64,000 bases of DNA from Eledone cirrhosa. Taxonomy: Eukaryota. Made by a program: the position numbers and the translations under genes. Where the stretch lies: positions 424,328,001 through 424,392,000 of the forward strand of contig OZ024740.1 in assembly GCA_964016885.1 (NCBI GenBank), given 5' to 3'. Positions 28,410 to 28,720 of the stretch are shown piece by piece. Below the pieces are notes generated by a model that worked only from the letters and a program-made list of their open reading frames with translations, did not search any database and was not told where the DNA came from. Within the stretch, counting starts at the first letter, position 1. The number at the start of each line of letters is the position of its first letter.

Positions 28410-28720
28410 CAGTTCCTGAGTGAATTAACAACCCAACAAGGAACTGGGCATATCAGAGTATTGATAATATTATACACCTAAACAACATATGTACTTGTCT
28501 ATACCATACTAATTCAAACTGCCTGAAGAGGTCACAGCCAAAGATGGCTGTCACTGAAATATATATAGCAGTAATAAACGAAGCTAAATTTTAATCATTC
28601 GACCTTTATTTAACTTTATTTTACACTACTCCGGAGTAACCAAACCAACCTGCGCACTTCGTTGAGTGCTCCAGCCTGCATACTGAGGTGTTGGTATACA
28701 ACCAACATAAACTCAAAATC
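28410..28720 (+). mobile_element. 311-bp non-coding hammerhead-bearing element (family Y, copy 1)
   Basis: About 7 differences from 52635-52950; embedded in microsatellite. Confidence 0.88.
28518..28572 (+). ncRNA. Type I hammerhead ribozyme motif
   Basis: actgc-CTGAAGA-ggtcacagcc aaagat ggctgtcact-GAAA-tatata-TA-gcagt, immediately followed by aataaa. Confidence 0.85.

What the first reader, a model, noticed from the sequence alone, without database searches (positions are those of the whole stretch)
28410..28720. Family Y: young 311-bp retrozyme-like element with an intact hammerhead, present twice
Seen: two copies 24 kb apart differ at about 7 positions, none in the ribozyme. Layout is a 5' stem (cagttcc/ggaactg), then the hammerhead with TATATA palindromic stem III, AATAAA and a fixed 3' end. 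Stem III is itself a TA run like the surrounding DNA. Inference: a solo terminal repeat or non-autonomous Penelope-like element; cleavage of tandem copies could give unit-length or circular RNAs.
Basis: partly seen in the sequence, partly recalled or inferred. Interest (0 to 1): 0.75.

Follow-up and report, generated by a model that had tools for sequence, protein, structure and literature searches.

The report
Hydra-clade Penelope retrotransposon end stubs
The two 311-base repeats are cut-off tail ends of an abundant, known kind of jumping gene (a Penelope-like element whose full copies elsewhere in the genome code for a copying enzyme), and they carry a predicted self-cutting RNA; the one less ordinary point is that such stubs pile up at one start site that long copies never stop at, which likely reflects two different RNA templates.

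Summary
In detail: two copies 24.2 kb apart, 7 differences, none in a well-formed type I hammerhead (predicted cut after 28567). It is not a retrozyme and not non-autonomous. It is the 3' end (pseudo-LTR plus 97-nt tail) of a 4.1-kb autonomous Hydra-clade Penelope-like element: about 8,500 exact hammerhead matches in the genome, intact 891/892-aa RT + GIY-YIG frames elsewhere, and window copy 2 is identical over 311 bp to the end of one of them. No head-to-tail junction of the short unit was found. Copies end at two fixed sites (213 and 310), and 37 of 39 mirror-image pairs use one of each. About half of the terminal arms that reach position -7 stop at -17..-7 (42 of 87), but 0 of 22 pseudo-LTRs upstream of the ORF do. 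This suggests that stubs are run-off copies of a linear, uncut RNA and that long copies come from a circular or read-through template; it is inferred, with no RNA data. The scan noted Hydra-type ends and the two-end pairing before on other DNA. Verdict: new member of a known kind, modest interest.

The parts
28410..28720 (+). Copy 1: 5'-truncated terminal stub (pseudo-LTR positions 0-213 plus tail 214-310) of a Hydra-clade Penelope-like element, in a TA/CA microsatellite
   Evidence: 7 differences to the end of intact-ORF copy L050
28410..28446 (+). 5' stem CAGTTCC/GGAACTG; in copies that reach -9 it extends into a longer hairpin whose base lies at the 5'-end hotspot
   Evidence: predicted
28518..28572 (+). 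Type I hammerhead: helix I 5 bp, helix II 11 positions (G.U first pair, C.C at pair 4), palindromic TATATA in helix III, AUA triplet, predicted cut after 28567; likely active only as a dimer
   Evidence: closing helix III costs +3.4 kcal/mol in the monomer; cleavage untested
28573..28578 (+). AATAAA, possible polyadenylation signal
   Evidence: sequence; function untested
28624..28720 (+). 97-nt tail between the two fixed 3' ends (213 = 28623, 310 = 28720); in full elements it is the leader that runs on to the ATG 55 nt after position 310; two predicted hairpins at about 28650-28674 and 28684-28715
52631..52950 (+). Copy 2: stub from position -9 to 310, identical over 311 bp to the end of intact-ORF copy L050; hammerhead 52748-52802, predicted cut after 52797

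Best explanation
The 311-bp repeat is the 3'-terminal piece of a 4.1-kb, protein-coding Hydra-clade Penelope-like retrotransposon, and the two window copies are likely independent by-products of its target-primed reverse transcription into TA repeats. Shown: the element's anatomy (leader, 892-aa RT + CxCX5C linker + GIY-YIG ORF, 1.1-kb 3' UTR, hammerhead-bearing pseudo-LTR, tail), thousands of copies, TA flanks, two fixed 3' ends, mirror-image pairs that use one end of each kind, and a 5'-end hotspot near -9 that is absent from pseudo-LTRs upstream of the ORF. Inferred: the endonuclease nicks both strands of (TA)n; reverse transcription starts inside the RNA at 310 on one strand and at 213 on the other (as shown in vitro for a Poseidon element); when it starts in the upstream pseudo-LTR of a linear, uncut transcript it runs off the RNA's 5' end near -9 and leaves a 220- or 320-bp stub like the window copies. 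The hammerhead would cut only when two pseudo-LTRs pair through the TATATA palindrome, so a lone stub would be largely silent.
For: Longer copies continue 5' into a shared UTR and ORF. 55 exact junctions run from position 310 into the ORF leader. Intact frames of 891 aa (L049) and 892 aa (L050). Hydra motifs RWK, DKT, CxCX5C, CxxC and CxH are all in the protein (against PMC8557442 section 11). The model (pLDDT 80.7) has telomerase RT 3du5 as its best PDB match, E 2.5e-9. Copy 2 has 0 differences to L050. 3' ends: 69 of 135 arms at 197-219, 65 at 299-310, 1 other; 37 of 39 inverted pairs have one of each; 116 of 135 have a TA-rich 3' flank. 5' ends: 42 of 135 at -17..-7. Genome counts: 5,530 for the 18-mer at -9 against 1,532 for the 17-mer just upstream; 331 TA junctions at -9 against 20 at the hammerhead cut; 377 perfect palindromes centred on CATATG. 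Stop at -17..-7 against passing on: 42/45 for terminal arms, 0/22 for upstream pseudo-LTRs, Fisher p 9e-6.
Against: No RNA-level evidence was obtained, so the RNA 5' end, cleavage and polyadenylation are all inferred. The -9 site is also the base of a predicted hairpin and carries ATAT microhomology with the target, either of which could add to the hotspot. Part of the 5,530-to-1,532 drop comes from older subfamilies with a different upstream sequence. Copy 1 begins at 0, not -9. Pfam support is weak: GIY-YIG E 9e-4, under the cut-off, for one piece; nothing relevant for the full protein; RVT_1 in 4 of 49 and GIY-YIG in 2 of 49 aligned relatives. Only 1 of the 55 junction copies has a complete frame. 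The 82 sampled loci come from one stretch of contig C1 and 60 were chosen on the hammerhead motif, so very short arms are under-sampled.
Confidence: 0.85

Rival explanations
1. A non-LTR retrozyme: a non-coding 310-320-nt unit that spreads through small hammerhead-made circles, and the window holds two monomers.
For: Size, type I hammerhead and short palindromic helix III fit metazoan retrozymes. The stubs far outnumber ORF copies (8,482 against 55 exact matches) and have a preferred 5' end.
Against: 0 head-to-tail junctions for either 3' end with a spacer of up to 14 nt. No tandem array in the 82 sampled loci. The unit is letter for letter the end of an ORF-bearing copy. Stubs span the cut site and start about 165 nt upstream of it, and only 1 of 90 arms has a 5' end at 150-165.
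Confidence: 0.04
2. The stubs are ordinary 5'-truncated copies primed in the downstream pseudo-LTR, and the -9 hotspot is a sequence effect (hairpin base, CATATG palindrome, ATAT microhomology), not an RNA 5' end.
For: The hairpin base and the palindrome lie at -9..-11. 377 perfect palindromes are centred there. Other palindromic sites give small fold-back clusters (4 arms at 121).
Against: A sequence effect should act on every pass, yet 0 of 22 upstream pseudo-LTRs stop there against 42 of 87 terminal arms (24 of 44 in arms of 92% identity or more). The longer TA microhomology at the hammerhead has only 20 TA junctions against 331. Arms primed at 213 and at 310 stop at the same place (25 and 17), so it is not a length limit.
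Confidence: 0.2
3. The stubs are copied from short non-autonomous master loci that begin at -9 (a SINE-like offshoot).
For: A fixed 5' boundary and a high copy number.
Against: The 5' junctions vary by a few bases and by partner arm. The hotspot occurs in arms from 75% to 100% identity, and young stubs match ORF-bearing copies exactly. A tree of stubs against ORF copies was not built.
Confidence: 0.08
4. The second copy is an assembly duplication across the gap at 51043-51242.
For: Both copies lie in long microsatellites and a gap lies between them.
Against: Different flanks, different 5' ends and 7 differences; each copy is closer to copies elsewhere in the genome than to the other.
Confidence: 0.01

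Closest known systems
Hydra clade of C-terminal EN+ Penelope-like elements (Craig et al. 2021, PMC8557442; section 11, passages, and supplement passages read), e.g. Hydra-1_Obim, Hydra-2_Amil
   Same: Single ORF with RT then GIY-YIG; RWK, DKT, CxCX5C, CxxC and CxH motifs; the W(F/Y)NPP-type block after the RT; hammerhead in the terminal repeat; (TA)n targets; partial tandems, inverted 5' copies, and a tail at one end only.
   Different: Unit of 4,125 bp and 892 aa against 'generally <3 kb'. It has about 130 and 50 aa of predicted disordered inserts (481-612, 697-746) and a 1.1-kb 3' UTR. The tail is 97 nt against 30-40. It is a different family from Hydra-1_Obim (different hammerhead and protein sequence in the supplement passages).
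PAc, Poseidon element of Anolis carolinensis (Frangieh et al. 2024, PMC11167929; parts 1-2 of 4 read)
   Same: Two internal reverse-transcription start sites that bound the tail; both strands cut and extended; AT-rich targets; uncut RNA is the main template in vitro.
   Different: Another clade. Its start sites and hammerhead overlap the ORF start, whereas here both sites lie upstream of the ATG. Its tail is 30-40 nt. A fixed 5'-end hotspot is not described in the parts read.
Dimer-dependent type I hammerheads of metazoan PLE pseudo-LTRs (Cervera and de la Pena 2014, PMC4209133; parts 1-2 of 4 read)
   Same: Long helix II, 5-bp helix I, small palindromic helix III, mostly dispersed single copies linked to truncated PLEs; circular templates proposed there for more-than-unit copies.
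   Different: [quoted passage not shown] The first helix II pair is G.U in the young subfamily (G-C in older ones). A C.C mismatch at pair 4 is shared by several families in this genome.
Metazoan non-LTR retrozymes (PMC7761336, passages; bioRxiv 10.64898/2026.07.22.740005, part 1 of 5 and passages)
   Same: Unit size near 300 nt, type I hammerhead, kinship with PLE pseudo-LTRs.
   Different: No tandem units found; the sequence is part of a coding element; the copies do not start at the cut site.

Membership tests
Penelope-like elements (EN+) | Single ORF with telomerase-like RT and C-terminal GIY-YIG endonuclease | tested here: met
   891- and 892-aa frames; YRDD motif; top Foldseek hit TERT; GIY-YIG E 9e-4, under the Pfam cut-off
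Penelope-like elements (EN+) | Partial-tandem pseudo-LTRs, inverted 5'-truncated copy, optional tail | tested here: met
   55 tandem junctions; 39 inverted pairs in 82 loci; two 3' ends
Penelope-like elements (EN+) | Hammerhead motif in the pseudo-LTR | tested here: met
Hydra clade | RWK motif, DKT in place of DKG, CxCX5C linker, CxxC and CxH around the EN Glu/Asn | tested here: met
   MRWKAF, HADKTN, CNCRNPESC, CKLC and CRH read in L049 and L050
Hydra clade | CCHH motif of the endonuclease absent | tested here: met
   by eye: one Cys only between IVY and YIG; not tested by alignment to reference endonucleases
Hydra clade | Insertion into (TA)n | tested here: met
   116 of 135 arms have a TA-rich 3' flank; of the other 19, 2 run into the ORF and most of the rest have TC, T-rich or short TA runs
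Hydra clade | Generally shorter than 3 kb (descriptive) | tested here: not met
   4,125-bp unit; the excess is low-complexity protein inserts and a long UTR
Hydra clade | Phylogenetic placement with reference Hydra RTs | not tested
   the reference proteins were seen only as supplement passages and were not available for a tree
Non-LTR retrozyme | At least two consecutive tandem units, each with a hammerhead | tested here: not met
   0 matches for both junction patterns; none in the sampled loci
Non-LTR retrozyme | Non-coding, with no autonomous parent of the same sequence | tested here: not met
   identical to the end of a coding copy
Non-LTR retrozyme | Small circular RNA accumulates | not testable with these tools
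   needs RNA from the organism
Type I hammerhead ribozyme | CUGANGA / GAAA / UH core with three helices and covarying pairs | tested here: met
   descriptor hit, 0 in 30 shuffles; several pair types at most helix I and II positions among 92 distinct, partly related variants
Type I hammerhead ribozyme | Self-cleavage | not testable with these tools
   needs an assay; the monomer helix III is predicted to be unstable

The most novel reading that the evidence does not exclude
The genome records two RNA templates for one Penelope-like element. A linear, uncut transcript with its 5' end near -9 is primed in its upstream pseudo-LTR and yields run-off stubs, like retroviral strong-stop DNA that is inserted instead of transferred. 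Long and more-than-unit copies are read from a template with no end at -9, most simply the 4.1-kb circle made by paired hammerhead cleavage and ligation. This would be genomic evidence for the proposed circular intermediate of an autonomous PLE, would explain how pseudo-LTRs are regenerated, and names the junction to test.
Probability: 0.3. Interest if true: 0.65.

Novelty: new member of a known kind. Interest (0 to 1): 0.3.

Why it matters
As a finding it is ordinary: hammerhead-bearing ends of Hydra elements in TA repeats are described. Its use is as a test case. The role of PLE hammerheads and the origin of partial tandems are open questions in the papers read (PMC4209133, PMC2377424, PMC11167929). 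This family is young, has intact ORFs and thousands of copies, and its end statistics give exact predictions: an RNA 5' end near -9, priming at 213 and 310 on opposite strands, and a 4.1-kb circle joined at 157/158.

Tried and rejected
Rfam scans gave no hammerhead hit; the 150 listed of 671 window hits were microsatellite-driven miRNA matches below their cut-offs. The minimum-energy fold of the whole 312 nt does not form the hammerhead (z -1.65); the isolated motif forms helices I and II. tblastn of four ORF pieces found no ORF of this family in the window. A PDB sequence search gave only E 0.13 hits to group II intron RT. The first hammerhead regex missed the main motif through a scripting flaw and was redone. 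Sequencing runs: no RNA holder listed; three contig sets were laid and cannot show starts or ends. A 5'-end peak at the hammerhead cut was sought and not found: 1 of 90 arms at 150-165, and 2 of 33 short upstream pseudo-LTRs at 149-160 against 1.5 expected. Target-site duplications cannot be read in TA runs. The twin-hairpin lead from earlier notes was checked only by folding: two hairpins lie in the tail (z -3.1), and no matching stable fold was seen behind position 310 (z -0.5 and +1.2). Four arms of an unrelated hammerhead family were dropped before the counts (139 to 135), and two arms that run into the ORF were dropped for the Fisher test (133). PMC5785218 is not held. Six paper searches found no description of a pseudo-LTR 5'-end hotspot confined to terminal copies; most subscription journals and Repbase are not covered, and the supplements of PMC11167929 and of the bioRxiv preprint were not seen and may bear on this.

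Full report
1. Observation. The two copies lie at 28410-28720 and 52640-52950 on the + strand and differ at 7 of 311 positions, none in the hammerhead. Both sit in long TA/CA microsatellites: about 3.2 kb and 0.3 kb around copy 1, and 1.3 kb and 2.3 kb around copy 2. Below, position 1 is window 28411. The hammerhead has helix I ACTGC/GCAGT, CUGAAGA, an 11-position helix II, GAAA, TATATA and an AUA triplet, with the cut predicted after 28567 (position 157). A descriptor scan found it in both copies, found two other hammerheads in the window, and found none in 30 shuffles. Rfam does not detect it.

2. It is the end of a larger element. The window lies in a 3.0-Gb animal genome, G000. A DNA search gave 871 candidates, and the 40 scored ones match at 97-100%. 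An 18-mer of the core has 8,482 exact matches. Of 30 fetched copies, many continue 5' into a shared 1.1-kb UTR and a GIY-YIG coding region, and others have an inverted copy directly upstream. Longer stretches show a partial pseudo-LTR running through position 310 into a leader and an ATG 55 nt later. There are 55 exact junctions of this kind. A protein search listed 137 matches, among them open frames of 893, 894 and 890 codons; L049 and L050 encode 891 and 892 aa. The unit is 4,125 bp. Window copy 2 is identical to the last 311 bp of L050; copy 1 differs at 7 and is nearest to other copies at 5 differences. So the two are separate, recent insertions and not an assembly artefact.

3. Clade. 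The protein has 12,757 relatives at E<=0.001. Its model has mean pLDDT 80.7 with disordered stretches at 481-612 and 697-746, and the best PDB match is telomerase RT (E 2.5e-9). Pfam support is weak. The motifs that Craig et al. give for the Hydra clade (PMC8557442, section 11) are all present: RWK, DKT, CxCX5C, CxxC and CxH, no CCHH (judged by eye), a hammerhead, and (TA)n targets. The block after the RT reads like the Hydra rows of their alignment. The element is longer than the described members. No tree was built.

4. The ends. I mapped 82 loci on the natural copy L050: 60 taken in order from the first hammerhead matches on contig C1, 20 from the list for a 17-mer just behind the cut site, and 2 junction loci. 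After dropping 4 arms of another family, 135 arms remained. The 3' ends fall at 197-219 (69 arms, mode 213) or 299-310 (65), with 1 other. Of 39 adjacent inverted pairs, 37 have one end of each kind; one of the two exceptions (L053) runs on through the ORF and ends at 213. This fits the in vitro result for an anole element, where both strands are cut and extended and two internal start sites bound the tail (PMC11167929), and it fits the tail at one end only in Craig et al.. Here the tail is 97 nt.

5. The 5' hotspot. 42 of 135 arms begin at -17..-7, most at -9 or -11. Genome counts agree: 5,530 for the 18-mer at -9 against 1,532 for the 17-mer just upstream (partly a subfamily effect), 331 TA junctions at -9, and 377 perfect palindromes centred on CATATG. 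There is no such peak at the hammerhead cut: 20 TA junctions (some are slippage) and 1 of 90 arms. The stubs therefore come from RNA that was not cut there. All 55 pseudo-LTRs upstream of the ORF were then examined: 33 begin at 27-291, 22 begin at -19 to -2381, and none begins at -17..-7. Among terminal arms, 42 stop there and 45 pass on (Fisher p 9e-6; 24 and 20 for arms of 92% identity or more; 34 and 32 counted per locus). A hairpin or microhomology effect should act on both passes. A linear RNA from -9 primed in the downstream repeat should give upstream repeats that never pass -9. My reading is that stubs are run-off copies of a linear RNA with its 5' end near -9 (the site resembles an initiator, a motif recalled from memory; Penelope has a promoter in its pseudo-LTR, PMC2377424 passages), and that long copies are read from a template without that end: a unit-length circle as proposed in PMC4209133, a read-through transcript, or repeated template transfer. 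These steps are inferred. Window copy 2 starts at -9 and copy 1 at 0.

6. The ribozyme. In the monomer, closing helix III costs 3.4 kcal/mol, while two AUAUAUAU strands pair at -3.2, so cutting likely needs two repeats, as described for PLE hammerheads with low in vitro activity. Among 92 distinct, partly related variants from the fetched DNA, most helix I and II positions show several pair types. Pair 1 of helix II is G.U, G-C or A-U (38, 28, 20) and pair 4 is C.C in 78 and C.U or U.C in 12. All arms of 96% identity or more with a readable site have U at 11.1 and many older ones have C (65 U, 39 C). The palindrome in helix III is TATATA here but TGCGCA or CTAG in other families.

7. Retrozyme test. 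Neither head-to-tail junction of the short unit has a match (exact patterns, spacer up to 14 nt), and no array was seen in the sampled loci. The defining feature used in the 2026 preprint is not met.

8. Earlier notes of this scan (nothing by sequence) were read after sections 1-6 were done. They report Hydra-type ends and the two-end pairing for other families in this and other genomes. They agree but are not independent support.

9. Verdict. A real feature and a new family of a known clade. The ribozyme and architecture are described in print. The contrast at -9 is the only part I did not find described (searches listed under Tried and rejected), and it is indirect. Interest 0.3.

Noticed in passing
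window 20928-20992 (+): A second hammerhead of another family (TGCGCA palindrome, C.C-type mismatch in helix II, predicted cut after 20987) in a short TA-flanked insert of about 20770-21030; relatives occur in other loci.
   Followed up: partly
window 56944-56984 (-): A third, smaller hammerhead with a CTAG palindrome (predicted cut after 56949) in a TA-flanked insert with fold-back arms.
   Followed up: partly
window 29011-29471, 21030-21486, 22204-22651, 34899-35130, 20334-20613: A 450-bp repeat family at 89-94% identity, also lodged in TA runs; one copy lies 300 bp downstream of copy 1.
   Followed up: no
L050:3019-5697 (residues 481-612 and 697-746): The ORF carries long low-complexity, predicted disordered inserts with G- and C-runs; four other near-full copies read only 633-635 aa.
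   Followed up: partly
fetched loci, helix II pair 4: A C.C (or C.U) mismatch at the fourth position of helix II is kept across several hammerhead families in this genome while neighbouring pairs covary; it may be a tertiary contact.
   Followed up: partly
L003, upstream of the main copy: A small tandem array of a 33-bp unit made from the element's 5' end (positions about -9 to 18).
   Followed up: no
L106 and L110 (C1, about 34.40 and 35.42 Mb): The same compound insertion with the same breakpoints occurs twice, 1 Mb apart: a segmental duplication, counted twice in the arm statistics.
   Followed up: no
run X4 laid on L068:2400-3600: A run labelled as a second organism holds 9 pieces, 6 at 99% identity or more, one bridging position 310 into the ORF leader: a close relative, transfer or mixed sample.
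   Followed up: no
window 38144-38332 and 59059-59754: Short fold-back elements with near-perfect inverted arms around TA runs.
   Followed up: no
L031:1-921: A fragment of a different Hydra-type RT family near one of the copies.
   Followed up: no
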